This document shows, one piece after another, positions 10,316 through 62,894 of a stretch of 64,000 nt of DNA; the stretch's first letter is position 1; each line of letters opens with the position of its first letter. The stretch covers positions 1 to 64,000 of the IMG/VR virus record IMGVR_UViG_2852501635_000002. The stretch is one strand, 5' to 3'. Position numbers and translations under genes: made by a program. Origin of the DNA: a virus. Taxonomy: Duplodnaviria; Caudoviricetes. The notes below the pieces were generated by a model. That model worked only from the letters and a program-made list of their open reading frames with translations. It ran no database searches and was not told the DNA's origin.

Positions 10316-10346
10316 CTTTTATCTCTGGTTGCCCTTCGATGATTAA

Positions 10347-12375: not shown

Positions 12376-12396
12376 AACTAAATCATCTATCAAAAA

Positions 12397-47507: not shown

Positions 47508-49796
47508 ATGTCTACAATTCCAACACAAAATCCAGTTCCAAGTGAAGCACCGCGCGACCTGAAATTTAACTCAGGTAAAATTGACGAGTTTGTTACGTCA
47601 AATAATCACTTTTACACTGACCGTTTTGGTGAAAAGCACTATACAATAGATGGTATTAACTATTTATCAAAACAGGCAATACTTAATTATGGCTATATCA
47701 CGAAGAGGTCTTTTGAGTCGGGTAATACCATCATCAATCCTAACGATGTTCTTCTCTGGGAAAGTAATGGCGAGTACTACAGATGGGATGGTGAACTCCC
47801 CAAAGTAGTTAGCGCTACCTCAACCCCTGATTCAGCTGGAGGTGTTGGTAAAGGAAAATGGGTGGGAGTAGGGGATGCTACTCTAAGATCTTCACTGAAA
47901 GATAGTGAAGGTGCTTCCTTAGTTGGAGTTAAAGATGGTGGAACCATTCAGGGTAAACTGGACGAAATAGTAGATGAATTAAATAACCCGTCTTTTATAA
48001 AGCACACCTTTATGGAAGGAATAAAAAATATATCTGCAAGAATGGCCTCTGGAGAGGTAATCAAGATTGCATGCTTCGGTGATTCAACCACAGATGGAGA
48101 CACCACAACGGAATTTATTAAAAACCCAACGGATGCGTCTGGCAACGCTATTGGTAACACAGATCACAATATGACCGCACCTAATGCATGGCCTAATATT
48201 CTTCAGGGGATACTTAGGGAAGCGTATGGGAATAATAATATTCATGTTTTTAATGCTGGCTATTCAGGCAAAAAAATTCACGATGGGTGGGCTGTTCGTA
48301 ACTATGATAAGGCCATTACAAATAACCCTTATTATGGGAAGCCAGATATTACAATAATTGATTTTGGTTTAAATGACATTAAAGATGGGGTTGGTATACT
48401 TAATGATTACTTGGATCAAACTCAAATATTAATAGATAAAATAAAAGAGCAGGGAACTATACCAATTCTATTGACATCTGGCCCTTGCATTTGGAGTAAT
48501 GATGATGGTAGTCAGATTGACAACAAACAAATATCACAACAAATTAATGAAGCGAAAAAATCAATAGCGAAGAAAAATCTTATTGAGATAATCAATAAAG
48601 CTGATGCATTAAAAGAGGTTATTGAAAATAACTCAGATAACATTAAATGGATTGAAATAATGAAAGATGGACTTCATTTTTCAGACACTGGACACCGAAT
48701 TCAAGCGGGATTTTTATTTTCTATATTTTATGGTGATATTGTAAAATATAATAGAGGCAGGTTAGACATATCATCATTTGACTCAAGGTCTAATTCTCCG
48801 TGTGGAGTAAATTGGAAATATTCATTTATCGGTTCTAAGTTTGGTGGTTATTCAAGAGTTCCTGAAAGCTATCTTGAAAATGGTAATGATTTAATAAAAT
48901 TATTTGTATATTGCACATCTCCTTCAGCAAGCCTGTACTATATTAATGCAGATAATGACGGACAGGGGGTTATAGGGAATAACTCTACAATCAATGTACT
49001 TGCGTTTAATAAAAATAGCATTGAATACAACAAATCACCAAATGGCGTTGGGTTTAATTATGACGCAAACCCTCATAGAAGATTTGCTGATAAACCAGAT
49101 TATGTATGTAAATTAAATTATGGGTTAAACGTAGTTACCTTAAAAAAACCATCTGTAAATACTATTACAGACCCATTTGGTTGTTTTTATGGTTATTTTT
49201 CTATTTCTGATTCATATGATGCAAATAACACAAATAATTTATTGAAAAGCAATGGATGTATATTTTCATCAGAGAAAATTTCTTCAGATAGAATTAAAAT
49301 AGAACAACCAGCAAGAGATATTGGTGCAAATTCGATATCTTTCATTAAGGATAAAACTGTTTCTTTGTATTTAGACTTAACTATAAGCAAAGGGTTTGGG
49401 TTAGGTTTAATGGGTGGTGTTTCAGATCTATCAAATTCAACTGATAACTATTCTGTTGATAAATGTTTAATGTTGTATCAAATAGATGAATCTAGAAAAG
49501 GGCTTTATGTTTACAGGGTCAGCAATAAAGGAGTGGTAGCGTTCGATAAATTGGTGGAGTTTTCAGCCAGTGAAGATAAATTACTAATTGATTTTTCTTT
49601 GAAAGAAAACAATATATACATAAGCGTTTCAACATGGGATAAAAAAACAAATCACACCACTTTTACAATAAGTAGCGGTGATGTGTTAACAATACCAACT
49701 TCTGGATATTTTGGAGGACTGTATCTAAACGGAAGCGCTCAGGGTGATAGTGGGAGTATATTAATAAATAAAGCGTTTACTGTAGTTAGTAACTAA
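47508..49796 (+). CDS. Tailspike with SGNH/GDSL esterase domain
   Basis: Virion-anchor N-terminus (YYRWDGELPK); FGDS, NAGYSG, FGLND and DGLH blocks. Confidence 0.85.
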   Translation: MSTIPTQNPVPSEAPRDLKFNSGKIDEFVTSNNHFYTDRFGEKHYTIDGINYLSKQAILNYGYITKRSFESGNTIINPNDVLLWESNGEYYRWDGELPKVVSATSTPDSAGGVGKGKWVGVGDATLRSSLKDSEGASLVGVKDGGTIQGKLDEIVDELNNPSFIKHTFMEGIKNISARMASGEVIKIACFGDSTTDGDTTTEFIKNPTDASGNAIGNTDHNMTAPNAWPNILQGILREAYGNNNIHVFNAGYSGKKIHDGWAVRNYDKAITNNPYYGKPDITIIDFGLNDIKDGVGILNDYLDQTQILIDKIKEQGTIPILLTSGPCIWSNDDGSQIDNKQISQQINEAKKSIAKKNLIEIINKADALKEVIENNSDNIKWIEIMKDGLHFSDTGHRIQAGFLFSIFYGDIVKYNRGRLDISSFDSRSNSPCGVNWKYSFIGSKFGGYSRVPESYLENGNDLIKLFVYCTSPSASLYYINADNDGQGVIGNNSTINVLAFNKNSIEYNKSPNGVGFNYDANPHRRFADKPDYVCKLNYGLNVVTLKKPSVNTITDPFGCFYGYFSISDSYDANNTNNLLKSNGCIFSSEKISSDRIKIEQPARDIGANSISFIKDKTVSLYLDLTISKGFGLGLMGGVSDLSNSTDNYSVDKCLMLYQIDESRKGLYVYRVSNKGVVAFDKLVEFSASEDKLLIDFSLKENNIYISVSTWDKKTNHTTFTISSGDVLTIPTSGYFGGLYLNGSAQGDSGSILINKAFTVVSN

Positions 49797-49860
49797 ATGC
49801 AACAGACACATATACTCGCTAGGATTCATCAAAAAATAATGAAATGTGGGTGATAGCTAA

Positions 49861-50091
49861 TCACTCACTCTTCAAATACTGCACTGATTTTCCATCCGGC
49901 AACTTCTTACTTCTCTCACGATAAAACGTTAATCGTTCATTAAAGTACGCTCGTAAATGTGCTGGTTGTTGTCTTTCAACTTCTGAGGCAACAACTGGCA
50001 TATTGAGGCGTTCTTTATATGCGACACCACTTGCGGCCAAATCGACATTAATCTTGTCTTTTTCTTCTTGAGTTAGGTTTGCGAGGTTCAT
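49861..50091 (-). CDS. holE: DNA polymerase III theta-subunit homologue (HolE/Hot)
   Basis: 76 aa; [22 protein letters not shown]. Confidence 0.92.
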
Positions 50092-50139
50092 AACAGATCC
50101 AGTTAGTTTTTGGAGAGTATAGCAGGGTGGGAGAATTGA

Positions 50140-50213
50140 TGGGACGAATTTGGGACAAGCAACATGAAGTAGCATAAGGCAACTTCAAGTAACTTTAGGT
50201 AAGGTGGGACGTG
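50140..50213 (+). repeat. Putative prophage integrase arm-type sites (TGGGAC x3)
   Basis: TGGGACGAATTTGGGACA matches 29-46; third copy at 50205. Confidence 0.7.
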
Positions 50214-50265
50214 TGAACGCTTGGTGAGACTGTATTTAGTTGATATTAAAGCATAATTCTACGCT

Positions 50266-50310
50266 CTTCTAAGCCGTAGGTCACAGGTTCGAATCCTGTA
50301 GGGCGTACCA
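50266..50310 (+). repeat. att core: 3' half of tRNA-Arg(UCU); prophage attR and probable satellite left boundary
   Basis: CTTCTAA anticodon loop, GGTTCGAATCC T-arm, CCA end; no D-arm or 5' acceptor strand. Confidence 0.88.
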
Positions 50311-50423
50311 TTCTCAAGTATTTTAACGTCTACAACAGTCCATAAAATCCTTATAAAATCAGCTATTACAAGAATTCCTAGTGTTTCAAGGTCTAGTTAC
50401 GTCTATTGAAATCTACATATATG

Positions 50424-50474
50424 TGGGGGCATAATTGGGGGCATTATCCCGTTCAATGAAAATTGGTGCCCCCA
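50424..50474. repeat. Putative arm-type sites of the satellite integrase
   Basis: TGGGGGCAT x2 plus inverted TGCCCCCA. Confidence 0.65.
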
Positions 50475-50475
50475 G

Positions 50476-51687
50476 ATGAAGCTAACAGCCAGACAAGTAG
50501 AGACTTCCAAGCCAAAAGAGAAAGCTTATAAACTTTCTGACGGAGGGGGCATGTATTTAGAAGTTGCTCCGAATGGTTCTAAGTATTGGCGTATGAAATA
50601 TAGATATGCTGGTAAAGAGAAAAGGCTGGCTTTAGGTGTATACCCATCAATATCACTCGCACAAGCTAGGGCGAAGAGAGAAGAAGCCAAGCGCATATTA
50701 GCGTTAGGTGATGATCCATCTTTAGTGAAGAAAGCAGAAAAGAGAGAGAAAGAATCTCAAGTAAATAATAGCTTTGAAAAAATTACGCTTGAATGGCATG
50801 ACTATAAAAAGCCGAATTGGTCAAAAGGTTATGCGGATGATTTACTAGAAGCCTTCCAGAAAGATATCTTTCCTTATATTGGTAAAGTTAGCATTACAGA
50901 AATTAAACCGTTAGATATGTTAGAAGTGCTTCGGAAGTTAGAAAAACGCGGTGTGTTGGATAAGCTTAAAAAGATAAGGCAGGCATGTAACCAAGTATTC
51001 CGCTATGCAATTGTGACAGGACGGGCTGAGTATAATCCCGCATCAGAATTAGCCGGCGCACTGTCTACTCCAAAAGCTAAGCATTTTCCTCACTTAAATG
51101 TGAATGAGTTACCTGAGTTTTTACAGGCACTATCTGTATGTAGTGGAAGTAAGATCACTCAGATTGCGACAAAGCTATTAATGATAACAGGCGTTCGTAC
51201 TATTGAGCTTAGAGCTGCTGAATGGTCAGAAATTGATTTTGATAAAGCTATTTGGGAAATTCCAAAAGAACGTATGAAAATGCGTCGCCCTCACATGGTG
51301 CCATTATCTACACAGGCCTTAGAATTATTCAAAGAAATACAAACCATAACAGGAAAGTTTAAGTATATCTTTCATGGTAGGAATGATGCTTCTAAACCAA
51401 TGAGTGAAGCGGCCATAAATCAGGTTATCAAGCGTATTGGTTATGATGGTAGAGCCACAGGTCACGGATTCAGACATACAATGAGCACCATCCTGCACGA
51501 ACAAGGCTATAACACTGCATGGATTGAGACTCAACTTGCACACGTTGATAAAAACTCTATTCGTGGAACGTATAACCATGCTCAGTATATTGATGGCCGT
51601 AGAGAAATGCTTCAATGGTACGCTGATTATATGGATACTTTAGAGAGCGGGGATAATGTTGTCCACGGTAACTTTAAACGTGCTTAA
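50476..51687 (+). CDS. int: P4/IntA-family tyrosine integrase
   Basis: YKLSDGGGMYL; LALGVYP; HGFRH; QLAH; YNHA. Confidence 0.95.
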   Translation: MKLTARQVETSKPKEKAYKLSDGGGMYLEVAPNGSKYWRMKYRYAGKEKRLALGVYPSISLAQARAKREEAKRILALGDDPSLVKKAEKREKESQVNNSFEKITLEWHDYKKPNWSKGYADDLLEAFQKDIFPYIGKVSITEIKPLDMLEVLRKLEKRGVLDKLKKIRQACNQVFRYAIVTGRAEYNPASELAGALSTPKAKHFPHLNVNELPEFLQALSVCSGSKITQIATKLLMITGVRTIELRAAEWSEIDFDKAIWEIPKERMKMRRPHMVPLSTQALELFKEIQTITGKFKYIFHGRNDASKPMSEAAINQVIKRIGYDGRATGHGFRHTMSTILHEQGYNTAWIETQLAHVDKNSIRGTYNHAQYIDGRREMLQWYADYMDTLESGDNVVHGNFKRA

Positions 51688-51708
51688 CCCACCAGCAGAC
51701 ACATACAG

Positions 51709-51738
51709 AACCAGACAATAAAAGGTCTGGTTTTTTTG
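51709..51738 (+). terminator. Terminator after the satellite int
   Basis: ACCAGAC/GTCTGGT stem plus U-tract. Confidence 0.75.
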
Positions 51739-51899
51739 TACCGAGAAAGGGCATTAATAATATTTAATCATTAAATGTATGATGTGGCTGAATTCTAACT
51801 AAGATGAGAAAAATCTTAATATACGCTTAAGAGTACACCCTAGTAGACGACAATAGACTATGCGAAGATGTGATAAATAAAACTGTTCGTTTCTTAAGC

Positions 51900-51928
51900 T
51901 TGACTGTTCATTATTACAGTATAATATA
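51900..51928 (+). promoter_or_regulatory. Sigma70 promoter upstream of the boxA array
   Basis: TTGACT-17-TAATAT. Confidence 0.6.
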
Positions 51929-51961
51929 CCTAGTAGTACCGCAGTAGATCATTGTGGACTT

Positions 51962-52710
51962 CGCTCTTTAACACCTCTGCGCTGAAAAACGCGATATGTT
52001 CTTTAACAACGATGATGGCGAGCTGTGTGTTAGTCATCAGAACGGTGGCGCTGATAAAGCGACCAATGCTCTTTTACAAATTCGGGTATGCCCAGAGTAA
52101 ATTCTCAGGGACAATCTGTCACGGTGGCGCTCTTGAAGCGCTGATATATGAATTTTTATCTGATTAGTAGCAGAACCAGCTTGTAACAAATAAGGAACGC
52201 TCAGAGCAATTTCTCCGAGCATATAAGTTTTATTGATAATCTTTATATTAGATTATCAGCTCTTTAAAATATGGATTCCCCCTTGGGTTGTCTTGAGGGG
52301 GCTAATGATAACCTCATTAGCATGTTGATGACTTCTCAACATAAATAATATTTGTAGCAAAATATGTACTGATAGCTACTTGTTCTTTAAAAACTGACCT
52401 GCGCTCCTTGCAAATGGGAGCTTTTAGTAAACAACTTAATGATTTTGTTCTGTTTACTAAATATATGTAGTTCAGGTCGTTAATGGCAATCAGCTAAATT
52501 GAATAATATAATTGTAACTATTCAAATTAGTAAATTGTTCTTTGAAATTTAAGTCTCCGCCTTTGTGGAGTGTAGTTCTGTTCTTTAAAACTTATTTCGC
52601 TCCTGCATCAGGAGCAAAGCTCATATCTATATCAATGGAAATATTATCTTATCAAATATTCATTAATTATAGTTATGTTCTTTTCAAGGCTCTATGCACA
52701 GGCAGTGAGC
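51962..52710 (+). ncRNA. Structured non-coding leader with an array of boxA motifs and hairpins (nut-like sites)
   Basis: boxA-like 12-mers at 51962, 51997, 52067, 52258, 52381, 52536, 52579 and 52676, all on + strand, interleaved with stem-loops. Confidence 0.7.
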
Positions 52711-52802
52711 ACAAATCAGTTTATTATTGAGATTGTTTTATTTTAAACAACAAGCCCCCACTCAAAAAACACCTTAAAATATAAACCATAATATGCGTTA
52801 TT

Positions 52803-52832
52803 AACCTTATACATTTATGTATAGGGTTTTTT
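52803..52832 (+). terminator. Terminator-like hairpin just upstream of alpA
   Basis: AACCTTATACA-TTTA-TGTATAGGGTT followed by TTTT. Confidence 0.55.
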
Positions 52833-52867
52833 CGCATGTCTTTTCATATCACATTAAGGAAAATACT

Positions 52868-53065
52868 ATGAATAATCTGATTAGGCTTTCAGAGGTTTTG
52901 CGACGCACAGGTTACAGCAAAGCTTGGATTTATAGACTAATTAAAGAAAATGACTTTCCTAAACAAGTCAAAATAGGAGCTCGTTCTATTGCTTTTGTTG
53001 AATCAGAAGTAGATGAATGGATTGCTAATAAGATTGCTGAATCACGTTCTGGTGAGGTGGCATAA
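52868..53065 (+). CDS. alpA: AlpA family regulator
   Basis: LIRLSEVLRRTGYSKAWIY...FPKQVKIG...ESEVDEWI. Confidence 0.95.
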   Translation: MNNLIRLSEVLRRTGYSKAWIYRLIKENDFPKQVKIGARSIAFVESEVDEWIANKIAESRSGEVA

Positions 53066-53460
53066 TGAAAAAGAAAAACCACCCATCACAGGTGGCTTCT
53101 CAGAATAACGTAGCGTCGTCTATTCTATCAAAGAACCCACCTAAAAAACACCGTGCCCGTTTATATATGTTAGGTACTGGCATTAATGGCTTTACCGAGA
53201 ATGAAATATTAATTCATTGCCGTTTATCGTCAGGCCGTAATTACCCAAATGAATTAGAGCGTTTATTGAATATCGAACTAGAACGCATTGATGAGCCTAA
53301 TCCTGATGGTATCGGATCACATTATCGTTACCGCTTTAAAACGGCTCAAGATGTGCAGAAGGTTATTAACTTAATAAATAAACGTGCTGAACAAGGTAAT
53401 TACCAACCCATAGATAACGCACTCATAAATAATATTTTAAGCCTGTACCCGACAAAATAA
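53065..53460 (+). CDS. Hypothetical protein (possible wHTH)
   Basis: Coupled to alpA; LSSGRNY. Confidence 0.7.
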   Translation: MKKKNHPSQVASQNNVASSILSKNPPKKHRARLYMLGTGINGFTENEILIHCRLSSGRNYPNELERLLNIELERIDEPNPDGIGSHYRYRFKTAQDVQKVINLINKRAEQGNYQPIDNALINNILSLYPTK

Positions 53461-53472
53461 CGGAATAAAAAA

Positions 53473-54306
53473 ATGAAACTAAAAAATAACAGCTTAAATG
53501 CTGGTGGATTCGCTCACCCTGAAAACCACTCTAGCGATATTAAGGAATTATCTTTTGCTGAAATGCTGCCAGTAATTCAGGGAAATATTAACGGGCAGAT
53601 TATTAATGCAGTAAGTGCCAAAGCATTACACGAAGCATTAAGTGTAGGTCGTGATTTTTCTACTTGGATTATTGGCCGTGTTAATGAATACGCTTTTGTG
53701 GAAGGAACGGATTATCAATCAGATGATGACTTTAATATTCGCTGCTTACTTAATGAACAATATTCCCCCGTTTTGGGGAATAATACAAAACGTGGTCGCC
53801 CTGAAAAGGATTACTTATTAACGCTAGGCATGGCTAAAGAATTGGCAATGGTTGAACGTACCGAAAAAGGGCGCTTAATCCGGCAATACTTTATCAAGTG
53901 TGAGGAAGCTCTACACAAAGTCGCGCCAACAATCACTAAGCAGTTACGGCATCAACTTAAATCACGCCTCAAAGTGGCTAGTTACTTTAAGCCGATGTGT
54001 TCAGCGTTAGAGCTAGCACGTATGGAGCAAGGCAAAAGCACACTACCGCACCACTACACAACTGAGTCAAACATGCTTAACCGAATTGTGTTAGGTGGAC
54101 TCACTGCCAAAGCATGGGCGAAGCAGAACGGCATTATTGGCAATCCCCGTGATGCTATGAGCGAAACCCAATTAGAGCACCTTTCATACCTTGAGCAGAC
54201 GAATACAACGCTAATTGAATTAGGCATGGACTATCACGCACGCAAGGACAAGTTAATCAGTCTATCTCAAAAGTGGTTAGCGCAACGTGTAGAGGTGGCG
54301 CAATGA
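53473..54306 (+). CDS. AntA/AntB-domain antirepressor-like protein
   Basis: VSAKALHEAL..GRDFSTWI; MAKELAMVE...IRQYFI. Confidence 0.85.
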   Translation: MKLKNNSLNAGGFAHPENHSSDIKELSFAEMLPVIQGNINGQIINAVSAKALHEALSVGRDFSTWIIGRVNEYAFVEGTDYQSDDDFNIRCLLNEQYSPVLGNNTKRGRPEKDYLLTLGMAKELAMVERTEKGRLIRQYFIKCEEALHKVAPTITKQLRHQLKSRLKVASYFKPMCSALELARMEQGKSTLPHHYTTESNMLNRIVLGGLTAKAWAKQNGIIGNPRDAMSETQLEHLSYLEQTNTTLIELGMDYHARKDKLISLSQKWLAQRVEVAQ

Positions 54307-55028
54307 TTACCCTATGTTCAATAAAGGATATTGCCTACCAAGTGAATAATTCTCTACTGGCAGGTAATAACGTAAGTTCAACTTACACCACGACTAATAC
54401 GGTAGCTTTAAACTATGGTATTACGGGCAGTCAATCAGCGAAAATTTACGCCAATCAATCAATCCTAACCACCGTTGGAGGATGGGATAACAGCGATAAC
54501 CTAAAACGTGGAGAATTTACACCATTTATTAAAGGTGATTTTTCTCACCTTTCTAAAGTCGGGAAATCTCGCTATTTATCGAGTGAAATTGAGTTTTTAC
54601 AGTCCATAAAAAAGGGCGGCCAATCGGCTACCCTTGGGAACGTCGATATTAAATACCGAGCAAGTGAGAACTATAAGAATAGTATTCATCTTGTTATCGG
54701 TAAAGATGACAACCTTGAGTTAATACAAAAATGTGCAATACATCACTTGCACTTATGGGTAATTGTTGGCTATAGTGATCAGGCACTAGCAAAATCTAGT
54801 GTCAGGATTGGCGTTCTGAATTTGTACAAGGCGACACATGACGCGCCTAGCGTCTTTTTTTGTGTCAATGCCTACGCACACCTATTAAATGCGGTATTAT
54901 ATCGCACCGAATCTATGGTGGCGGCAGCAGAGCAACCGAAAGGTTGGCTGGTTTCCTTGTACGCCAGTAACGCCAACTCTACTGTCGTCACCACCCCGAA
55001 ATTGGCGTTTCTGGTGGTGACTCCTTAG
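54303..55028 (+). CDS. Ash-family ORF overlapping the C4 RNA module
   Basis: APSVFF...SMVAAAEQPKGW pattern; may not be a real protein. Confidence 0.45.
   Translation: MITLCSIKDIAYQVNNSLLAGNNVSSTYTTTNTVALNYGITGSQSAKIYANQSILTTVGGWDNSDNLKRGEFTPFIKGDFSHLSKVGKSRYLSSEIEFLQSIKKGGQSATLGNVDIKYRASENYKNSIHLVIGKDDNLELIQKCAIHHLHLWVIVGYSDQALAKSSVRIGVLNLYKATHDAPSVFFCVNAYAHLLNAVLYRTESMVAAAEQPKGWLVSLYASNANSTVVTTPKLAFLVVTP
54915..54994 (+). ncRNA. c4: C4/P4-CI-like antisense RNA
   Basis: CCTTGTAC and AACGCCAA are complementary to GTACAAGG and TTGGCGTT, found both upstream (54808, 54824) and downstream (55002, 55033); promoter TTGCAC-18-TATAGT. Confidence 0.8.
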
Positions 55029-55051
55029 TATTGTACAAGGAGATCATCGTT

Positions 55052-55243
55052 ATGATGGCAACCCCTACCCAAACTCAATTCAAATTTTTGTTTCTGAGTA
55101 TTAAACGTTCAGATACAACTGCTAAGCCTTGCCGTATCACTATTACCGCACCGAATGAACACGATGCAAGACTGATGCTTGTACGTGATTATATCCTGTC
55201 ATTCGCTGGTCGCTTACCTGTTAAGGAGGTGGCTCATGCGTAA
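55052..55243 (+). CDS. icd: Icd-like host cell division inhibitor
   Basis: FLFL...A.NEHDAR..LVRDYILSFAGRLP. Confidence 0.85.
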   Translation: MMATPTQTQFKFLFLSIKRSDTTAKPCRITITAPNEHDARLMLVRDYILSFAGRLPVKEVAHA

Positions 55244-55409
55244 TCCTCAACCTAACGATTTCTACACGCATAAAAATAATAGCGAAACCGCCAAAGTTCT
55301 ATCGGTTCAATTCAACCGTGTGACCTTTCAGCGAGACGGCTTTGATAGTCCTGTCATTGTTCCATTAAGCCAGTTCAGCAACGAATACACCTATGCAGGG
55401 AGGGCTTAA
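55236..55409 (+). CDS. DUF4222-like protein
   Basis: RVTFQRDGF..P...PLSQF. Confidence 0.7.
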   Translation: MRNPQPNDFYTHKNNSETAKVLSVQFNRVTFQRDGFDSPVIVPLSQFSNEYTYAGRA

Positions 55410-55411
55410 TT

Positions 55412-55669
55412 ATGGGGCGTTATCCAGAAAACTATAAGCGTATTCAAGCCGAAATTTCGAACATGTTAGGCAATGACCTCCTTTTATCTTCAGAAGAACG
55501 TAGCCGTGACCGATTACTTAGGGTTCGAAAAGGTATGGCTCATATTCTTAGTGAAGTATTTCCTCTAATTGATGATCCCAAAAAACAAGAACTCTATTAC
55601 TGGTTGGAAGCCATTAGCCGTATCAGTGGCGCAGAAGCCGTAGACGCTAAATCGAAGGGGGAAGCATGA
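55412..55669 (+). CDS. Hypothetical protein
   Basis: Coupled ORF. Confidence 0.7.
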   Translation: MGRYPENYKRIQAEISNMLGNDLLLSSEERSRDRLLRVRKGMAHILSEVFPLIDDPKKQELYYWLEAISRISGAEAVDAKSKGEA

Positions 55670-55845
55670 GCAAACCTATTCCATTGGACATAGCTGCATA
55701 CAAGGCGCAGCAAAATAATTCATTACTTGCCGTTATCTTAGAGTTAGCAAGTAAAGATTGTTCGCGGGAGTTAATCGACCTCGTTTCTATTGCGTATGAC
55801 TTTAATGCGGAAATATGTGAATCCCTCGAGGAGGCGACCAAATGA
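55666..55845 (+). CDS. 59-aa hypothetical protein
   Basis: Manual translation; ATGA overlaps on both sides. Confidence 0.7.
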   Translation: MSKPIPLDIAAYKAQQNNSLLAVILELASKDCSRELIDLVSIAYDFNAEICESLEEATK

Positions 55846-56051
55846 AAACAATCAAATTAAATGTTGGTCACTTATCTACCTTGGAAGAAGTCGAACACAT
55901 CAACGAAGAACTTCAAGCGTTGTTAATCCCGCTGTTAACAGCTGTAGAGAATGAAGCTGAGACGGATACGCATTTTATGCTGAGAGCAGTCAACCGCTTA
56001 GTGTGTGCTCAAGGAAAAGAAATCACAAAGTTGGTGGAGGTGATGAAATGA
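55842..56051 (+). CDS. Hypothetical protein
   Basis: Coupled ORF. Confidence 0.7.
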   Translation: MKTIKLNVGHLSTLEEVEHINEELQALLIPLLTAVENEAETDTHFMLRAVNRLVCAQGKEITKLVEVMK

Positions 56052-56659
56052 GACAAGTCACTATCAATGCCACCAGCTTAAGTCCATTCATGTATCAAGG
56101 TAAGCGAGTTGTCACCTTTGCCATGATTGACGAGGTACACCAACGCCCAACAGGTGCGGCTAGAAAATCATTCAATGCTCACCGTCAATATTTTACTGAG
56201 GGTAAGGATTTTTACCGCCTAACTGGACAGGATTTAGAACTGTTTAAACTTTGCGCGTCCATAAAACGGACGCACAAATATTCACCCATTAGTGATAAAG
56301 CCCGAGAAGTAACACTGATTACTGAATCGGGATACTTGCTAACCGTGAAGCCATTTAATGATCCACTTTCTTGGCAGGTACAAAACCAGCTTATCGATGC
56401 ATATTTTCGACTGTCTGAATTCCCTGAATTACAGCACATCAACATACCCACACTGGCAGAACTTGAAGCCATGCCAATTGGTGAGGCTCAGAACTTGATT
56501 AGCCGCTTAGAGGCTGATTCTTATCAAGGGCACGGTAGGCGTGGCAGCTATGCCATGAACCTACGTCGCAAAGAGAAGAAAGCACTTAAACCAATGGTAA
56601 TCGCCATTGAGCAAGCCTCGCAGCTACACATTCAGGATATGGGAGATTATCGCTCATGA
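56048..56659 (+). CDS. ORF6N-domain protein
   Basis: RVVTFAMIDEVHQRP; FTEGKDFY; LITESGY. Confidence 0.85.
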   Translation: MRQVTINATSLSPFMYQGKRVVTFAMIDEVHQRPTGAARKSFNAHRQYFTEGKDFYRLTGQDLELFKLCASIKRTHKYSPISDKAREVTLITESGYLLTVKPFNDPLSWQVQNQLIDAYFRLSEFPELQHINIPTLAELEAMPIGEAQNLISRLEADSYQGHGRRGSYAMNLRRKEKKALKPMVIAIEQASQLHIQDMGDYRS

Positions 56660-56829
56660 GAACGTTTCTAATTGCAGGTTATGGCACAACACTAAAAGGC
56701 CTAACACTAGGCATTAACAAGCAAGTGATATCTGCCAGCCTAAAAGATGCTCAGTCACAAGTGGTGCGAGAGGCGCAACGTGACGGTTTAATTGATATCC
56801 GAATCAACTATGCGCGTGAGGTGAAGTAA
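56656..56829 (+). CDS. 57-aa hypothetical protein
   Basis: Manual translation; overlaps both neighbours. Confidence 0.65.
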   Translation: MRTFLIAGYGTTLKGLTLGINKQVISASLKDAQSQVVREAQRDGLIDIRINYAREVK

Positions 56830-57023
56830 TGACGCAAGAACAGAAACGTGAAATAGAGCAATTACTAGAACCGCACCAGTTAAAAGTATTAATGCTAATC
56901 ACCTTACTTTCTACGTGGTTGGAAGCAGAGGAATGCGATGAAACCAGAAACATGATCTGGGCTGTATTGACTGTTGTTTATTCAATTAGGGATGAAATGA
57001 ACGAAGCAGTAGAGGGTAAGTAA
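56829..57023 (+). CDS. Hypothetical protein
   Basis: Coupled ORF. Confidence 0.65.
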   Translation: MTQEQKREIEQLLEPHQLKVLMLITLLSTWLEAEECDETRNMIWAVLTVVYSIRDEMNEAVEGK

Positions 57024-57619
57024 TGAATATTTCTAATATTAACGCATTCGAACACAGTGAACAGGGTGTGATCCTCATTACTGAAGCAGCCAACCAAGAG
57101 GCTATCAGCTATACCGAAGCATTAGAGGTATTAAACGATGGTAGCTTTGATGGTGATCTGATTTTTGGCTTTGAATTGGTTTTAGCTATCTGCAAGGGAG
57201 AGTGTGACGGCTTTTTTAATCCAACTAATCAGCAGCGTGTGATCTTGTGGCGTTGGATTGTAGCCGCTTCGTTTGTCGCAGAGCAAGCAGACAATAACGG
57301 GACGCATCAAGTTGACAACGGCAGAGGTAAAACCATTACCGCCGCTATTTATCGCAACAAACATGCAACGTTAACCGTCTATGCCGCAAGCGAACGTATG
57401 TTACTAGCTAATCACATTGAGGGCGCTGCTTATGAGCACTATGGGGCAGAGAATGGCGCAATTATGGCAGTAAAGATATATAGGGATTTTATCAATCTTG
57501 AGCCTAAACGCGGTTGCCGACTATCAGAACGAGGGCGTGAGGGGTTATCTGTTCTTCATGATGATCTAATTAGGGCGATAGAAGATGGTGAATTTAGCGA
57601 CACCGTAACCATTCATTAA
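57023..57619 (+). CDS. Satellite hypothetical protein
   Basis: 198 aa; LSERGREGLSVLHD motif. Confidence 0.7.
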   Translation: MNISNINAFEHSEQGVILITEAANQEAISYTEALEVLNDGSFDGDLIFGFELVLAICKGECDGFFNPTNQQRVILWRWIVAASFVAEQADNNGTHQVDNGRGKTITAAIYRNKHATLTVYAASERMLLANHIEGAAYEHYGAENGAIMAVKIYRDFINLEPKRGCRLSERGREGLSVLHDDLIRAIEDGEFSDTVTIH

Positions 57620-57633
57620 AAGGACGCAATGAC

Positions 57634-57978
57634 ATGATAACGAAGAATTTTAAAGTTAATTCACTAGCGAATAGCTACGCAGCTGCTATTTACCACGATA
57701 TTACCACACGTAATGGCGGTGATTGGTTTTCGATGAAGGTAGGCAACAAAACGATTGAAGTTGCCATTATTGACGGTGTGAAAGGTATTCGAATGCTCGT
57801 TGATAGCTATTTGCTGAAAGCCTTAAAAGGGCAATATCCCACATGGGAGGCAGTTGCTATTGGCTTGATAGAGCAATGTGTCATTAATGGATATGTCACA
57901 GGTTATGGTCGAGAGGTGTGGCAAAGCATGATTAATGATATGGGCGACTCTTTCGCTGATAAGGGGGCGTTTCAATGA
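57634..57978 (+). CDS. Hypothetical protein upstream of the primase
   Basis: Coupled ORF. Confidence 0.7.
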   Translation: MITKNFKVNSLANSYAAAIYHDITTRNGGDWFSMKVGNKTIEVAIIDGVKGIRMLVDSYLLKALKGQYPTWEAVAIGLIEQCVINGYVTGYGREVWQSMINDMGDSFADKGAFQ

Positions 57979-60695
57979 AGCCGATTGATGTTATCCGTGA
58001 GGTGAAGCTGAAAGCTAACGGACAATGGCAAGCTATATTATCTCACCTTGGGGCAGAAGTGCCCCTAAACACGCACACGGCTTGCCCTCATTGTGGTGGT
58101 AAAGACCGGTTTAGATTTGATAACAAGGACGGTAATGGCACGTTTATTTGTAATCAGTGCGGTTCTGGTGATGGATTAGATCTCGTTCAGCGTGTGTTAG
58201 GTGTCAGTGTAACCGAAGCTGCAAAAGAAGTTGCTAACATAATTGGTATTGATACCCGTTCAGCGTGTCCACCAGCCTACCGTCGTTCTGAGATAAAAGC
58301 ACAACAAGACGAACTGAAAGCGCAGCAAGCCGAAAAACAAGCTAACGAGAAGAGAGAGAAGCATAAACGCTTTATTGAACGGTATAACCGCACTATTGCC
58401 AATGTTCAACGTGGGAGATCTGACTATCTCAAGGCTAAGGGGCTGCATGGTTTTGAAATGGATTTATTACAGGACGGTTCTCTTATCATTCCATTATTGG
58501 ACGCTGGTGGCGTTATTACTGGCGCACAAACTATTAAGCCTAATGGTGATAAGCGTTTGCTGTCAGATAGCGCAAAGTCAGGCAGTTATTACCCCATCAA
58601 TGAGCCTGTAAACGTCTCTACGGTGATTATCGCTGAAGGATTAGCAACCGCCCTAACGTGTCACTTAATCCAACCAGAAGCGCACACAGTTGCGGCAATT
58701 GATGCGGGAAACCTCATTCATGTAGCTAAGGTAATGCGAGTTAAGTATCCAGAGAGCAAGATTATTATTGCTGGGGATAACGATATTAAGCCAGGCCAAG
58801 ACAATACAGGGAAATTAGCGGCAGAAAAGGCAGCTAAGGTGGTTAATGGTGTCGCTGTTTTACCCCCTACTGATGATAAAGCCGATTGGGATGACTACCG
58901 CCTATCACACGGTATTGATGCGGCAAGACAGGCATTTAATGAAATATTAGAGCAGCAAGGAGGCAAGGTGATGATAGAAACTAGGGTAAGCAATGAAGTC
59001 GTTAAACCTGACCCAATGAAGCCACGCATTGAATCACGTAAAGAGGGGGTATTTCTTGTTACACCGAAAGCCGACAAGGAAACAGGGGAAATCATCAATC
59101 ATGAGCAGTGGTTATCAAATGCTATCAAGCGGATCACTAAAGGTGTTAATGACCTCAATCAAGAGTATTTGATTATTGAGTGGGGGAATAACAATGTTCA
59201 GGCAATACCGACAGGCGATATAGGAGAGCGTGAAGGATGGCGCACATTAAAAAACGCGGGGTTATTTGTCACTACCAAATCAGGATTAAGACAGTCGTTT
59301 TCTGATTGGCTGTTACGTCAACCATTCAAAGAGGACTGGAGTATTACGAATAAATCAGGTTGGCACAAAGGCGCATATATCATGCCCGATGGTTCAATTA
59401 TCGGCACACCTGAACAACCGATATTTTTTAACGGACAAAGCGCAGCAGCAACTGCCTACAAAGCAAGTGGAACGGTGGAAAGCTGGCGAAATGATGTAGC
59501 GCGATTGGCTAACGGTAATAGTTTTATGATGTTTACGATTGGCGCCGCATTATCTGCACCGATGACGAGTCTTACGGGGGCTGACAGCTTTGGTATTCAC
59601 ATTTACGCTCAATCGACAGCAGGGAAAAGTACCACGGCAGATATGGCCGTGAGTTTATACGGTGATCCTGATTTACAGCGCTTAACATGGTATGGCACTG
59701 AATACGGTATGACTAACGAAGCTGTAGCGCACAATGACGGACTTTTGTATTTGGATGAAGTCGGACAAGGGGCAGACCCTAAACACGTCTACAAATCGGC
59801 TTACACGCTGTTTAATGGTAAAGGTAAGATCCAAGGTGCGAAGGAGGGCGGCAATAGGCAAGTTCAAAGCTGGCGGACAGTGGCCATTAGTACAGGAGAA
59901 AAGGATATTGAGACCTTTTTATTAAGTTCGGGTGTGAAAGTCAATGCAGGGCAGCTAGTACGATTACTCAACATCCCTATTGAACGCGCCACTGAACTAC
60001 ATGAATGTGAAACAGGGAAAGCCCACGCAGATTTAATTAAGATAAATTGCCGTTCTAGCTATGGGGCCGCAGGACGTTATTGGATTGAATATCTATCAAA
60101 TCATAAAGATGAAGCTAAAGAAGCCTATAGAACTGCACAACAACGCTGGAGTAAATTAATTCCGAGCAGTTACGGAGAACAAGTTCATCGAGCCAGTGAT
60201 CGATTCGCTACTATAGAAGCGGCTTTGATAATGGGCCGTGTGATTACTGGCTGGAATGAACAAGATTGTAAGGATGCTGTTCAAGCCGCGTTTAACGCTT
60301 GGATTGCTGAGTTCGGCACAGGTAATAAAGAGATTGAACAGATTAAAGATCAGACGATCGCTTTTTTAAGTACGTATGGAATGAGTCGATTTGCTCCATT
60401 GCCTTATGATGAGCAATCTTTACCTATCAGAGAACTTGCAGGGTACAGAGTTAAATCAAACACGCAGGATGAAGCGCCCATATTATTTTATACATTGCCA
60501 ACAGTATTTAAGAACGAGATAGCCAAAACGTTCAATACGGACACTTTCGCTGATGCCCTGCATAAACTAGGTATTTTAAAAAAGCCTTCCAATGGGAAAG
60601 GATATCAAGGCAGAACACCGCGTTTGAAACATTTAGGCAACATTCAGCAACGCGCCTATATTTTGATGCTTGTTCCTGATGAAGAGGAGGAGTGA
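57975..60695 (+). CDS. Primase-helicase (Zn ribbon, TOPRIM, DUF927)
   Basis: CPHCGGKDRFRFD; IAEGLATA; AGDND; STAGKST; LDEVG; STGE. Confidence 0.92.
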   Translation: MKPIDVIREVKLKANGQWQAILSHLGAEVPLNTHTACPHCGGKDRFRFDNKDGNGTFICNQCGSGDGLDLVQRVLGVSVTEAAKEVANIIGIDTRSACPPAYRRSEIKAQQDELKAQQAEKQANEKREKHKRFIERYNRTIANVQRGRSDYLKAKGLHGFEMDLLQDGSLIIPLLDAGGVITGAQTIKPNGDKRLLSDSAKSGSYYPINEPVNVSTVIIAEGLATALTCHLIQPEAHTVAAIDAGNLIHVAKVMRVKYPESKIIIAGDNDIKPGQDNTGKLAAEKAAKVVNGVAVLPPTDDKADWDDYRLSHGIDAARQAFNEILEQQGGKVMIETRVSNEVVKPDPMKPRIESRKEGVFLVTPKADKETGEIINHEQWLSNAIKRITKGVNDLNQEYLIIEWGNNNVQAIPTGDIGEREGWRTLKNAGLFVTTKSGLRQSFSDWLLRQPFKEDWSITNKSGWHKGAYIMPDGSIIGTPEQPIFFNGQSAAATAYKASGTVESWRNDVARLANGNSFMMFTIGAALSAPMTSLTGADSFGIHIYAQSTAGKSTTADMAVSLYGDPDLQRLTWYGTEYGMTNEAVAHNDGLLYLDEVGQGADPKHVYKSAYTLFNGKGKIQGAKEGGNRQVQSWRTVAISTGEKDIETFLLSSGVKVNAGQLVRLLNIPIERATELHECETGKAHADLIKINCRSSYGAAGRYWIEYLSNHKDEAKEAYRTAQQRWSKLIPSSYGEQVHRASDRFATIEAALIMGRVITGWNEQDCKDAVQAAFNAWIAEFGTGNKEIEQIKDQTIAFLSTYGMSRFAPLPYDEQSLPIRELAGYRVKSNTQDEAPILFYTLPTVFKNEIAKTFNTDTFADALHKLGILKKPSNGKGYQGRTPRLKHLGNIQQRAYILMLVPDEEEE

Positions 60696-62363: not shown

Positions 62364-62537
62364 ATGAGTAAGCAAAAAAGAACCTTCAAGCCAGTGTCAA
62401 TTGATAGTGAAATAATAGAACGCGTCAAAAAGTTTAAAGAAAAACAGGGTGAAAAAGATTTTTTCATTCAACGAGCACCTATTAGTCAATTAATTCAAGG
62501 GTTACTAATTAATGCCTTACATAACGAGGGATTCTAA
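62364..62537 (+). CDS. 57-aa possible ribbon-helix-helix protein
   Basis: Manual translation MSKQKRTFKPVSIDSEIIERVKKF...; stop overlaps the next ATG. Confidence 0.6.
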   Translation: MSKQKRTFKPVSIDSEIIERVKKFKEKQGEKDFFIQRAPISQLIQGLLINALHNEGF

Positions 62538-62878
62538 TGGAAAAATTACAACGGTTAGCAAGCACTATAGCCCAGATTTATGTTGATAATTTAAAAGCTG
62601 AAACAGGAGAAACATTAGTAACTTATAACGGTATCACAGGTAAAGTTACCCCTGAATTACTGGCCGCTGGATTGTTTGATAATGCGGTATTTGCGGTTAA
62701 AGCGGATGGAGAAGAGATTGACGTTGAAGGTAAGGCGTATGATTTACTATCCCCGTTAATTAACTTATCAACAAAGCCTTACTCCCTAACGGGACAGGCA
62801 TATAAATTGATTAATTTTCTCAATGTGCAGGCACTAAAAGCAGGAAGCACTTTATCAACCTTATCAGTTGTACATTAA
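62537..62878 (+). CDS. Hypothetical protein upstream of the TMP-like gene
   Basis: 113-aa coupled ORF. Confidence 0.7.
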   Translation: MEKLQRLASTIAQIYVDNLKAETGETLVTYNGITGKVTPELLAAGLFDNAVFAVKADGEEIDVEGKAYDLLSPLINLSTKPYSLTGQAYKLINFLNVQALKAGSTLSTLSVVH

Positions 62879-62894
62879 TCACAGGGAGAAAATT

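What the first reader, a model, noticed from the sequence alone, without database searches (positions are those of the whole stretch)
51900..52867. Satellite leader with a tandem array of boxA/nut-like sites upstream of alpA: candidate N/Nus sensing or decoy system
Seen: the ~1.1 kb between the satellite int terminator and alpA has no credible ORF. It contains a promoter (TTGACT-17-TAATAT, 51900-51928) followed by co-oriented boxA motifs: CGCTCTTTAACA (51962), TGTTCTTTAACA (51997), TGCTCTTTTACA (52067), AGCTCTTTAAAA (52258), TGTTCTTTAAAA (52381), TGTTCTTTGAAA (52536), TGTTCTTTAAAA (52579) and TGTTCTTTTCAA (52676). Five match GYTCTTTAANA exactly, all are on the + strand, and each is followed by a different stem-loop. 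Established: boxA binds NusB/NusE; lambdoid nut sites are boxA plus a phage-specific boxB hairpin bound by N; rrn and CRISPR leaders use a single boxA; AlpA activates Gram-negative PICIs. Inference: the array is a library of nut sites. Either N proteins from many lambdoid helpers antiterminate into alpA and induce the island, or the RNA titrates N/NusB and blocks phage early transcription. I know of no described satellite with this architecture.
Basis: partly seen in the sequence, partly recalled or inferred. Interest (0 to 1): 0.93.

Follow-up and report, generated by a model that had tools for sequence, protein, structure and literature searches.

The report
Phage nut-site array guarding satellite alpA
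The untranslated leader in front of a phage satellite's master switch gene (alpA) is a row of RNA sites copied from the antitermination (nut) sites of several different lambda-like phages, so the satellite probably wakes up by borrowing a helper phage's own N protein.

Summary
All eight boxA motifs are at the stated coordinates on the + strand. The strict motif matches 5 times in 64 kb, all inside 630 bases (shuffles: mean 0.67).

Four of the eight units (1, 2, 6, 7) match boxA-plus-hairpin sites of four different Morganellaceae lambdoid (pro)phages. There they sit at nut positions: after cro, or between pL and an N-like gene.

The array starts about 40 nt after a conserved promoter carrying a LexA-type box. 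Two terminator-like hairpins lie on the + strand, one 35 nt before alpA. P4-type isrK/C4 immunity RNAs lie downstream.

The same layout (LexA-like box, nut array, hairpin, alpA) occurs in 12 of 153 alpA loci, in four sequence families. One is E. coli EcCIMP1. Its published alpA reporter covers this leader and needs both mitomycin C and the helper Kapi1, which encodes an N-like protein.

Best reading (about 0.6): a multi-specificity N-antitermination sensor, gated by SOS. A decoy role is not excluded. Four units have no phage counterpart, and N-dependence is untested.

This scan found the same architecture before in E. coli satellites. Eight of my nine literature searches were aimed at such an array and found none; the ninth asked about the int-alpA RNA.

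The parts
50476..51687 (+). Satellite tyrosine integrase
   Evidence: Pfam Phage_int_M, Phage_integrase and Arm-DNA-bind_3. 68% identical to the EcCIMP1 integrase.
51708..51740 (+). Terminator-like hairpin plus U-tract after int
   Evidence: Hairpin of -11.9 kcal/mol followed by a U run.
51900..51927 (+). Predicted sigma-70 promoter (TTGACT, 16 nt, TAATAT) overlapped by a LexA-type box CTGT-N8-ACAG at 51904-51919
   Evidence: (9 of 12 hexamer matches). Both hexamers and the CTGT and ACAG halves of the box are the same in all 5 aligned relatives except one -10 change in L004; L003 differs at one base of the spacer. A CTG[GT]-N8-ACAG box precedes the first boxA in 12 of 12 array-bearing loci. 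The consensus is recalled and LexA binding is untested.
51935..51961 (+). 5' leader conserved across relatives, with its predicted start near 51935
   Evidence: Nearly invariant in alignment A1. A metatranscriptome contig of a relative begins at 51947.
51962..51995 (+). Unit 1: boxA CGCTCTTTAACA plus a GAAAA-loop hairpin region
   Evidence: 26 of 28 identical to the site just after cro in Providencia phage PSTNGR2lys. The same phage has a second copy before its N-like gene. The satellite copy's stem is weakened.
51997..52066 (+). Unit 2: boxA TGTTCTTTAACA, a spacer hairpin, and a boxB-like GAUAA-loop hairpin
   Evidence: 62 nt are 85.5% identical (E 7e-10) to the pL-to-N spacer of Morganella phage IME1369_01. 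A 7.7-kb contig in run X1 joins an IME1369_01-like pL leader to 51996-52053 with 1 difference. The unit is absent from L003.
52067..52143 (+). Unit 3: boxA TGCTCTTTTACA, a long spacer, and the hairpin GCGCU-CUUGA-AGCGC (52127-52141)
   Evidence: L012 has GCACU-GUUGA-AGUGC after a boxA, a change on both sides of the stem. No phage counterpart was found; the scans were truncated.
52258..52301 (+). Unit 4: boxA AGCTCTTTAAAA plus a C5/G5 hairpin
   Evidence: The AAAA form equals the host-type rrn spacer boxA. No phage counterpart: 9 of 104 matches had a loose boxA-like string and none was in a nut context.
52381..52428 (+). Unit 5: boxA TGTTCTTTAAAA plus a hairpin at 52403-52421 followed by UUUU (internal terminator-like site)
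   Evidence: Conserved in L003, L084 and L085, absent in L004. This hairpin was found only in satellites.
52536..52570 (+). Unit 6: boxA-like TGTTCTTTGAAA plus the hairpin CTCCGCCTTTGTGGAG
   Evidence: The identical 16-nt hairpin lies 13 nt after CGCTCTTTAACA in four IMG/VR prophage contigs: L190, L192, L197 and L199. Only in L190 did I check the context, where it lies directly after cro.
52579..52615 (+). Unit 7: boxA TGTTCTTTAAAA plus the hairpin GCTCCTGCATCAGGAGC
   Evidence: The identical 17-nt hairpin lies 12 nt after CGCTCTTTAACA, directly after cro, in prophage L169.
52676..52710 (+). Unit 8: degenerate boxA-like TGTTCTTTTCAA plus a weak hairpin
   Evidence: Present only in the window and L085. 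This is the least convincing unit.
52803..52834 (+). Terminator-like hairpin (12-nt arms, 2-nt loop) plus U-tract, ending about 35 nt before the alpA ATG
   Evidence: (I14). The stem is conserved in all 5 aligned relatives. Positional equivalents with different stem sequences exist in L012, L138 and the E. coli family.
52868..53065 (+). alpA (AlpA/Vis-family regulator)
   Evidence: Pfam PF05930, E 4.4e-21.
54783..54998 (+). isrK (54783-54860) and C4 (54911-54998) RNAs inside the ash gene: P4-type immunity based on termination, downstream in the same orientation
   Evidence: Rfam RF01394 at 65.7 bits and RF01695 at 71.2 bits, both above gathering score.

Best explanation
The int-alpA leader of this EcCIMP1-like, P4-related satellite is a sensor for helper-phage N proteins.

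Shown by sequence:
- A predicted promoter overlapped by a LexA-type box starts an untranslated RNA of about 930 nt.
- That RNA carries eight co-oriented boxA-plus-hairpin units.
- At least four units are copies of nut sites of four different lambdoid phages.
- Two terminator-like hairpins follow, one inside the array and one just before alpA.

Inferred:
- In a quiet cell LexA keeps the promoter down.
- After DNA damage alone, transcripts stop at the terminators.
- If a lambdoid helper is growing, its N protein binds its cognate hairpin on the nascent leader.
- N then assembles with NusA/B/E/G on the neighbouring boxA and makes RNA polymerase termination-resistant.
- The polymerase reads into alpA and probably on through the P4-type immunity region (isrK/C4) into the replication genes.
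- Different hairpins give one satellite several possible helpers.
- Units are gained and lost as cassettes.
For: 1. Motif enrichment and strand bias. Across 153 alpA loci the strict motif occurs 33 times on the alpA strand and once on the other, in the 1200 nt upstream.

2. Homology to phage nut positions:
- Unit 1 matches PSTNGR2lys after cro, and again before its N-like gene.
- Unit 2 matches IME1369_01 between pL and its N-like gene.
- Both N-like ORFs hit phrog_271, E 2.4e-23 and 5.4e-19.
- Unit 7 matches L169 after cro.
- Unit 6 matches L190 after cro; the same boxA-plus-hairpin is in L192, L197 and L199, whose context I did not check.
- A module of the sister satellites L003 and L084 is preceded by boxA in 14 of 19 IMG/VR matches.
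- Of the 10 phage loci scanned, 7 hold two divergent boxA, two hold one, and one holds a third match away from the immunity region. The satellite has eight in 0.75 kb.

3. The boxA forms equal the host-type rrn leader and spacer boxA.

4. Conservation: boxA cores are 43 of 47 identical against 565 of 739 for the rest (L003), and 37 of 41 against 428 of 561 (L004).

5. Terminators.

6. A LexA-type box precedes the array in 12 of 12 array loci.

7. The same architecture occurs in three other families, with matches to annotated nutL or nutR.

8. Experiment on a homologue. The EcCIMP1 leader is of this type. From the passages I read of PMC11773190, its -449..+50 alpA-lux fusion is induced by mitomycin C only in Kapi1 lysogens. 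Kapi1 encodes an N-like protein (E 3.7e-32) with boxA sites at nutL and nutR positions.

9. A metatranscriptome contig of a relative spans 51947-53075, at depth 105. Depth is 0 just upstream and 2.6 downstream.
Against: - No experiment shows N or Nus dependence for any of these leaders.
- Units 3, 4, 5 and 8 have no phage counterpart in the collections searched.
- The unit 1 hairpin is weaker than the phage's (-3.3 kcal/mol), and its match is short (E 0.2).
- The promoter is only a 9-of-12 consensus match, and no transcription start is mapped.
- CTGT-N8-ACAG occurs twice in the window against 0.7 expected, so alone it is not significant.
- EcCICFT073, the best-studied alpA island induced by lambda and phi80, has no such array. 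This cannot be the general alpA trigger.
- Only 12 of 153 alpA loci have an array.
- My terminator scan found a hairpin before alpA in only 5 of the 12 array loci. The others have a hairpin with a weaker U-tract.
- The prophage next to the satellite in the window has no boxA or N-like signal.
- The genome holding L003 has no resident prophage with the L003 module.
- Contigs cannot prove transcript ends.
Confidence: 0.6

Rival explanations
1. Decoy or sponge. The leader RNA's main job is to titrate helper N, or NusB/NusE, and so slow the helper's early transcription. This would be satellite interference rather than sensing.
For: Eight N/Nus-binding units sit on one RNA. Satellites commonly interfere with helpers (general knowledge). 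The model is compatible with all the homology data.
Against: Each hairpin type is present once, not many times. The promoter carries a LexA-type box and is not an obviously strong constitutive promoter. Terminators and alpA lie directly downstream in the same orientation. The homologous EcCIMP1 leader drives helper-dependent reporter expression, and that paper's title says the island aids helper replication (PMC11773190, title and passages).
Confidence: 0.12
2. N-independent, rrn-like antitermination. The repeated boxA recruit NusB/NusE (with SuhB and NusG) to protect a long untranslated leader from Rho. The hairpins are incidental.
For: The boxA variants equal the rrn leader and spacer boxA of a Providencia genome. 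The leader is about 930 nt long and untranslated.
Against: Whole units, including spacer and hairpin, match phage nut sites rather than rrn leaders. The homologous EcCIMP1 leader is silent without the helper even with mitomycin C (PMC11773190). The terminator-like sites are of the intrinsic type.
Confidence: 0.1
3. DNA-level protein sites. The direct repeats are binding sites for AlpA, for a helper Cox/Xis-type protein, or for integrase arm binding, as with the Cox boxes through which P2 activates P4.
For: AlpA appears to auto-activate in EcCIMP1 (PMC11773190). The repeats are direct. As I recall it, the P2 Cox-box consensus resembles the reverse complement of the motif but is one base shorter.
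Against: In phages the same motif with the same flanks lies at nut positions, and most of the 10 phage loci scanned hold just two, one per early transcript. Two motif variants equal rrn boxA. The matches extend through spacer and hairpin.
Confidence: 0.05
4. Non-functional recombination scars. These would be fragments picked up from phages by illegitimate or homologous recombination, with no role.
For: Units come and go between close relatives. One unit is nearly identical to the nutL of a co-resident prophage.
Against: The array always has the same orientation and the same place between a LexA-type box and alpA, in four families with unrelated unit sequences. BoxA cores are more conserved than their surroundings.
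Confidence: 0.05

Closest known systems
nutL/nutR sites of lambdoid phages with N protein (lambda, P22, phage 21, H-19B/933W, HK97)
   Same: BoxA followed by a phage-specific hairpin on the transcribed strand, upstream of terminators. Four units match hairpins at phage nut positions. E. coli relatives match annotated nutL and nutR.
   Different: A phage has one nut per early operon, and most phage loci scanned here hold two divergent boxA, with N encoded in cis. Here eight heterologous units stand in tandem on a satellite. None of the satellite proteins I scanned is N-like, though not every ORF was scanned. The gene served is alpA.
Helper-dependent alpA induction in Gram-negative PICIs (EcCICFT073; EcCIMP1 with helper Kapi1)
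   Same: int followed by a co-oriented alpA. alpA expression needs the helper, not DNA damage alone (PMC6092414 and PMC11773190, passages). The window's satellite shares gene order with EcCIMP1, with int 68% and AntA 52% identical.
   Different: PMC6092414 (2018) says the phage inducer was still under study. In PMC11773190 (2025), of which I read only matched passages, the words 'inducer' and 'antiterminat' do not occur. EcCICFT073 has no boxA array. So the array explains only one subset of these islands.
P4 derepression by P2 (Cox/Ogr acting at the late promoter) and P4 immunity through CI RNA-directed termination
   Same: A satellite whose left operon begins with an AlpA/Vis-family gene, is held off by premature termination (isrK/C4 present) and is switched on by a helper product.
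   Different: P2 acts through DNA-binding activators (recalled). Here the proposed signal is an RNA-binding processive antiterminator acting on the satellite's own transcript.
Helper-embedded PICIs (PMC10111431)
   Same: The abstract describes satellite control wired in cis to helper transcription: the satellite sits inside, and co-oriented with, a helper late gene.
   Different: That case relies on physical insertion into the helper. Here the coupling would be in trans through N. I read only the abstract and some matched passages.
Rfam int-alpA RNA (RF02996)
   Same: It occupies the same int-alpA spacer in other satellites (L052, L092, L099) and is preceded by the same LexA-like box.
   Different: It is a single structured motif of about 70 nt with no known function. 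It does not match this window.
rrn operon antitermination leader
   Same: The same boxA sequences.
   Different: The rrn operon checked has one boxA before 16S and one in the 16S-23S spacer, it is N-independent (recalled), and it is followed by rRNA.

Membership tests
Lambdoid nut (N-utilisation) site | BoxA consensus on the transcribed strand | tested here: met
   Five exact and three near matches, all on the + strand. The variants equal host-type rrn boxA and phage nutL/nutR boxA.
Lambdoid nut (N-utilisation) site | BoxB hairpin downstream of boxA that is the cognate of a phage N protein | tested here: inconclusive
   Units 1, 2, 6 and 7 carry hairpins identical or near-identical to those at phage nut positions. 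Units 3, 4, 5 and 8 have hairpins without a known phage counterpart. No binding data exist.
Lambdoid nut (N-utilisation) site | Lies on a transcript between a promoter and terminators | tested here: met
   Predicted promoter at 51900-51927. Terminator-like hairpins at 52403-52428 and 52803-52834. All are predictions. A metatranscriptome contig spans 51947-53075.
Lambdoid nut (N-utilisation) site | Terminator read-through that depends on N and on NusA/B/E/G | not testable with these tools
   This needs reporter and genetic tests.
LexA (SOS) operator | CTGT-N8-ACAG palindrome (consensus recalled) overlapping a promoter | tested here: met
   At 51904-51919, between the -35 and -10 hexamers. Two such patterns occur in the window against 0.7 expected, so the sequence alone is weak evidence.
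LexA (SOS) operator | Conserved at the same place in relatives | tested here: met
   Both half-sites are invariant in 5 of 5 aligned leaders. The box is present upstream of the first boxA in 12 of 12 array loci and in 32 of 153 alpA loci overall.
LexA (SOS) operator | LexA binding and SOS induction | not testable with these tools
   Published reporters for EcCICFT073 and EcCIMP1 are not induced by mitomycin C alone. That fits a box followed by terminators but does not show binding.
EcCIMP1-like Gram-negative PICI / P4-related satellite | int followed by a co-oriented AlpA-family gene, with a primase-helicase | tested here: met
   Pfam hits. All listed genes from 50476 to 60695 are on the + strand.
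EcCIMP1-like Gram-negative PICI / P4-related satellite | P4-type isrK and C4 (CI-like) RNAs | tested here: met
   RF01394 and RF01695 score above gathering.
EcCIMP1-like Gram-negative PICI / P4-related satellite | Synteny and similarity with EcCIMP1 | tested here: met
   The order int, leader, alpA, orf, antA, ash is the same. int is 68% and AntA 52% identical.
EcCIMP1-like Gram-negative PICI / P4-related satellite | Helper-dependent excision, replication and packaging | not testable with these tools
   This needs experiments.
Rfam int-alpA RNA (RF02996) | Match to the covariance model | tested here: not met
   No match in 49500-54000 at E up to 5, nor in the whole window at gathering score. 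Other satellites do match.
rrn-type N-independent antitermination leader | One boxA before 16S and one in the 16S-23S spacer, followed by rRNA | tested here: not met
   Here eight units are followed by alpA. The genuine rrn arrangement is seen in L453.
Cox-box type DNA repeat array (P2/P4) | Direct 9-bp repeats bound by a Cox/Xis-family protein | not tested
   This is only a recalled resemblance. The same motifs sitting at phage nut positions argues for an RNA role.

The most novel reading that the evidence does not exclude
The array is an evolving, cassette-built record of helper phages. Each captured nut unit adds one N specificity. The satellite computes 'SOS AND any one of several N proteins'. 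The N-modified polymerase overrides not only the leader terminators but also the P4-type immunity that works through RNA-directed termination further downstream. The helper's very first early protein would then be a universal derepressor for this class of satellites. By the same token the leader would compete with the phage for N.
Probability: 0.3. Interest if true: 0.9.

Novelty: new variant of a known kind. Interest (0 to 1): 0.8.

Why it matters
How helper phages switch on alpA in Gram-negative phage-inducible islands is an open question. PMC6092414 (2018) says the inducer was under study. In PMC11773190 (2025), of which I read only matched passages, the words 'inducer' and 'antiterminat' do not occur.

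This leader offers a concrete and cheap test for one island family: N protein acting on captured nut sites.

If true, three things follow.
- A satellite reads a helper's earliest gene product through the helper's own RNA signal.
- Helper range could be predicted from sequence by matching hairpin types with N types.
- There would be a natural multi-input RNA switch: SOS plus several alternative antiterminators.

It also extends the pattern from E. coli to Proteus, Providencia and Morganella, with a different set of phage sites.

Tried and rejected
- **Rfam.** No family matches the leader at E up to 5 or at gathering score.
- **Coding potential.** The longest frames, 71 and 62 aa, are not conserved.
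- **Whole-leader folding.** It does not tell the strands apart: z is -6.0 on + and -6.4 on -.
- **Unit 3 hairpin.** Of 117 IMG/VR matches examined, 1 had a boxA-like string upstream, and it was not in a nut context. In the metagenome scan, 14 of 118 loci had G[CT]TCTTT and none was convincing. I checked L458 and it has no phage genes. That scan was also truncated.
- **Unit 4 hairpin.** 9 of 104 matches had a loose boxA-like string. None was in a nut context.
- **Unit 5 hairpin.** It occurs only in the satellites.
- **Unit 6 hairpin without boxA.** There were 43 matches. 4 are true boxA-plus-hairpin sites. 2 more were flagged by my loose pattern but are not boxA. The rest are chance.
- **Phages at low stringency.** Apart from the two relevant hits, the other 22 of 24 records were chance-level matches in unrelated phages.
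- **Adjacent prophage as helper.** It has no N-like tblastn hit and no boxA at its early leaders.
- **Resident prophage with the L003 module.** The genome holding L003 has none.
- **EcCICFT073.** It has no array, so I dropped the idea that this is the general alpA trigger.
- **Terminator scan.** 38 of 153 loci have a + strand hairpin before alpA, against 16 of 153 on the - strand. This is only a modest bias, and the scan missed 7 of the 12 array loci.
- **RNA runs.** X24 raw reads laid nothing, so it was no test. X1 has flat depth across int, leader and alpA, so it says nothing about expression. X4 gives two short fragments (51874-52130 and 52609-52769), which I do not count as evidence.
- **Not done.** I did not build a covariance model, because the units share only boxA. 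I ran no structure or complex prediction.
- **Literature searches.** Eight searches looked for a nut or antitermination array on a satellite and found none (and by its listing). One search, on 'int-alpA', found only two unrelated papers. Supplements were not opened.
Full report
**The observation.** The strict motif GYTCTTTAANA matches 5 times in the 64-kb window, counting both strands. All 5 matches lie within 51963-52590 on the + strand. In 100 dinucleotide-preserving shuffles the mean was 0.67 and the largest count 3. A looser pattern gives 8 matches, 7 of them in the leader. Each motif is followed by a different predicted hairpin. The spacer has no frame longer than 71 aa, and that frame is broken by a 70-nt absence in a relative. 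The promoter spacing is 16, not 17.

**Context.**
- The window comes from a provirus record.
- Positions 50476-60695 are a satellite, all on the + strand. In order: integrase, AlpA (PF05930), an AntA-domain gene, an Ash-family gene, and a Toprim/DUF927 primase-helicase.
- Rfam isrK and C4 RNAs lie inside the ash gene. These are the hallmark of P4-type immunity by premature termination.
- Gene order is the same as in the E. coli island EcCIMP1, with int 68% and AntA 52% identical.
- The neighbouring prophage (cI 11677-12393, cro, cII) has no boxA at its early leaders and no N-like hit.

**What the units are.** Blastn of the leader against phage records gave one significant hit and one weak one. 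Both are at textbook nut positions.
- **Unit 2** (62 nt, 85.5% identical, E 7e-10) matches Morganella phage IME1369_01. There it lies between a pL-like promoter with a palindromic operator and an ORF that hits PHROG 271, 'anti-termination protein N-like', at E 2.4e-23.
- **Unit 1** (26 of 28 identical, E 0.2) matches Providencia phage PSTNGR2lys directly after cro and before a cII-like gene. The same boxA and hairpin recur on the other strand before that phage's N-like ORF (E 5.4e-19).
- **Unit 7.** A pattern scan of IMG/VR found its 17-nt hairpin only in a close relative of this satellite and in prophage L169. In L169 it lies 12 nt after CGCTCTTTAACA, immediately downstream of cro.
- **Unit 6.** Its 16-nt hairpin lies 13 nt after the same boxA in four prophage contigs. 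I checked the context in one, L190, where it is directly after cro.
- **A sister-satellite module.** A hairpin module that replaces units in L003 and L084 is preceded by boxA in 14 of 19 IMG/VR matches. Its downstream context is the same as in L169 and PSTNGR2lys.

In every case the satellite's + strand corresponds to the transcribed strand of the phage site. Of the 10 phage loci scanned for boxA, 7 hold two in divergent orientation, two hold one, and one holds a third match away from the immunity region. The satellite holds eight in 0.75 kb. The two boxA endings used in the array (AACA and AAAA) are also the rrn leader and 16S-23S spacer boxA of a Providencia genome.

Units 3, 4, 5 and 8 have no phage counterpart in the scans I could run, and two of those scans were truncated.

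**Conservation and spread.**
- I examined 153 alpA loci that had at least 600 nt upstream, out of 160 fetched. In the 1200 nt before alpA the strict motif occurs 33 times on the alpA strand and once on the other strand.
- Twelve of the 153 loci hold two or more boxA. They fall into four sequence families:
  - the window's own group (L085, L084, Proteus myxofaciens L004, Providencia alcalifaciens L003);
  - six near-identical E. coli-type loci (L123 to L133);
  - L138;
  - an Enterobacter MAG, L012.
- Within the window's group the units behave as cassettes. Unit 2 is missing in L003, unit 5 is missing in L004, and units 7-8 are replaced in L084 and L004.
- BoxA cores are better conserved than the rest: 43 of 47 against 565 of 739 in L003, and 37 of 41 against 428 of 561 in L004. 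In the closer L084 there is no difference (43 of 49 against 599 of 689).
- The E. coli-type leader L129 contains a 48-nt stretch that is 81-96% identical to 106 phage records. Two of those records annotate the site as nutL: 933W and phage 27deltatox.
- L012 and L138 match the annotated nutR boxA/boxB of mEp234 and HK106 more weakly, at E about 1e-2 to 0.2.
- In E. coli complete genomes, 32 of 5426 hold at least 80% of the L129 leader. Others hold shorter versions.
- EcCICFT073, the classic island, has no such array.

**Gate elements.**
- A predicted promoter lies at 51900-51927. It is overlapped by CTGT-N8-ACAG at 51904-51919, a LexA-type box (consensus recalled).
- That pattern occurs twice in the window against 0.7 expected, so on its own it is weak.
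- Both half-sites are invariant in the five aligned leaders.
- A CTG[GT]-N8-ACAG box stands within about 100 nt upstream of the first boxA in 12 of 12 array loci, although their sequences are otherwise unrelated.
- The same box also heads the int-alpA spacer of many satellites that carry the Rfam int-alpA RNA instead of an array.
- On the + strand there is a terminator-like hairpin with a U run inside the array (52403-52428). A second one (52803-52834) ends about 35 nt before alpA, and its stem is conserved in all five relatives.
- Positional equivalents with other stem sequences occur in the other families. My automatic scan scored only 5 of the 12.

**Expression data.**
- A metatranscriptome contig of a 90-95% relative (run X5) covers 51947-51989 and 52065-53075. 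Unit 2 is replaced there by 74 other letters.
- Its depth is 105, against 0 just upstream and 2.6 downstream of alpA. That fits a leader-alpA transcription unit starting at the predicted promoter. Contigs cannot prove transcript ends.
- Run X1 holds a 7.7-kb contig in which an IME1369_01-like pL leader runs into 51996-52053 with one difference. A prophage with the same nutL as unit 2 therefore seems to share a genome with the satellite. X1 may be the window's own strain.

**Link to published experiments.**
- The EcCIMP1 int-alpA spacer is of the array type: LexA-like box, boxB-like and boxA units, then a hairpin.
- In the passages I read of PMC11773190, a fusion of -449 to +50 of alpA to lux is strongly induced by mitomycin C in Kapi1 lysogens but not in a non-lysogen.
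- By my count the spacer is 427 nt, so that fragment contains the whole leader.
- Kapi1 has an N-like gene (phrog_271, E 3.7e-32), with boxA-plus-hairpin sites after cro and before N.
- This is the behaviour the model predicts. It does not show that N is the inducer.
- PMC6092414 (passages) likewise reports helper-dependent, SOS-independent alpA expression for EcCICFT073, with the inducer unknown.

**Mechanism.** I think the most likely mechanism is a sensor.
- Shown by sequence: a promoter with a LexA-type box, nut-derived units, terminator-like hairpins, then alpA.
- Inferred: LexA holds the promoter down. Transcripts stop at the terminators unless a helper's N binds its cognate hairpin and, with the Nus factors on boxA, makes the polymerase termination-resistant. 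That polymerase then reads alpA and perhaps crosses the termination-based immunity region.
- The rivals are a decoy role, rrn-like Rho protection, DNA-level repeats and recombination scars. They are set out with their evidence in the Rival explanations section.
- The decoy role is compatible with the sensor and is not excluded.

**Novelty.** Nut sites and N antitermination are textbook. A tandem, multi-specificity set of them placed on a satellite before alpA is, as far as my searches reach, not in print. The library lacks most subscription journals, and supplements were closed.

Earlier agents of this scan reported the same architecture in E. coli satellites. Their mention of EcCIMP1 and Kapi1 gave me that lead, which I then checked myself.

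This window adds three things:
- a Morganellaceae version built from a different set of phage sites;
- the LexA-type box shared by all four families;
- the P4-type immunity context.

Noticed in passing
window 10215-10340 (- strand) and 12712-12913 (+ strand): The leaders after pL and after cro of the adjacent prophage have no boxA. Instead they hold GC-rich paired stretches. The first gene after pL is an HNH endonuclease, not an N-like gene. This could be an HK022-type, put-like, factor-independent antitermination system, but that is only an idea.
   Followed up: no
L052 3062-3130, L092 1291-1359, L099 1920-1988, L012 4298-4366: The Rfam int-alpA RNA (RF02996) occupies the int-alpA spacer in satellites that lack a nut array. 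In L012 the match lies just after alpA. In L052, L092 and L099 it is preceded by the same CTG[GT]-N8-ACAG box and by TAGAC repeats right after the int stop codon. The alpA leader may generally be an RNA-level control region.
   Followed up: partly
L167 11190-11250 (EcCICFT073) and L012 3270-3320: Five (EcCICFT073) and three (L012) direct repeats of a GGAACAAC-like octamer lie just downstream of int. They may be arm-type or regulator sites. I have no explanation.
   Followed up: no
L455 6804-7142 (- strand), phage Kapi1: The gene next to Kapi1's N-like gene hits 'Nun-like transcription termination factor' (phrog_5632, E 2.3e-70). This helper may both use and attack nut sites, which could also bear on satellite leaders.
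   Followed up: no
window 50230-50307: Only a sub-threshold tRNA-like match (18.7 bits against a gathering score of 29) lies just upstream of int, and ARAGORN finds no tRNA in the window. It is probably a partial tRNA at the attachment site between prophage and satellite.
   Followed up: no
L002 1980-2049 (- strand) against L002 3999-4062: The second boxA site of IME1369_01, on the other strand, carries a hairpin with the same GAUAA loop as its nutL but a different stem (GUCAC/GUGAC against GACGC/GCGUC). This is natural covariation that supports the hairpin as the recognised element.
   Followed up: partly
window 52042-52061 and 52121-52140: Units 2 and 3 share a 20-nt repeat (85% identical) that runs into their hairpins. 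The two units look like paralogues that differ mainly in the loop (GAUAA against CUUGA).
   Followed up: partly
window 62364-64000: Earlier first-reader notes report a tape-measure-like gene at the far end of the satellite. I did not look at it.
   Followed up: no
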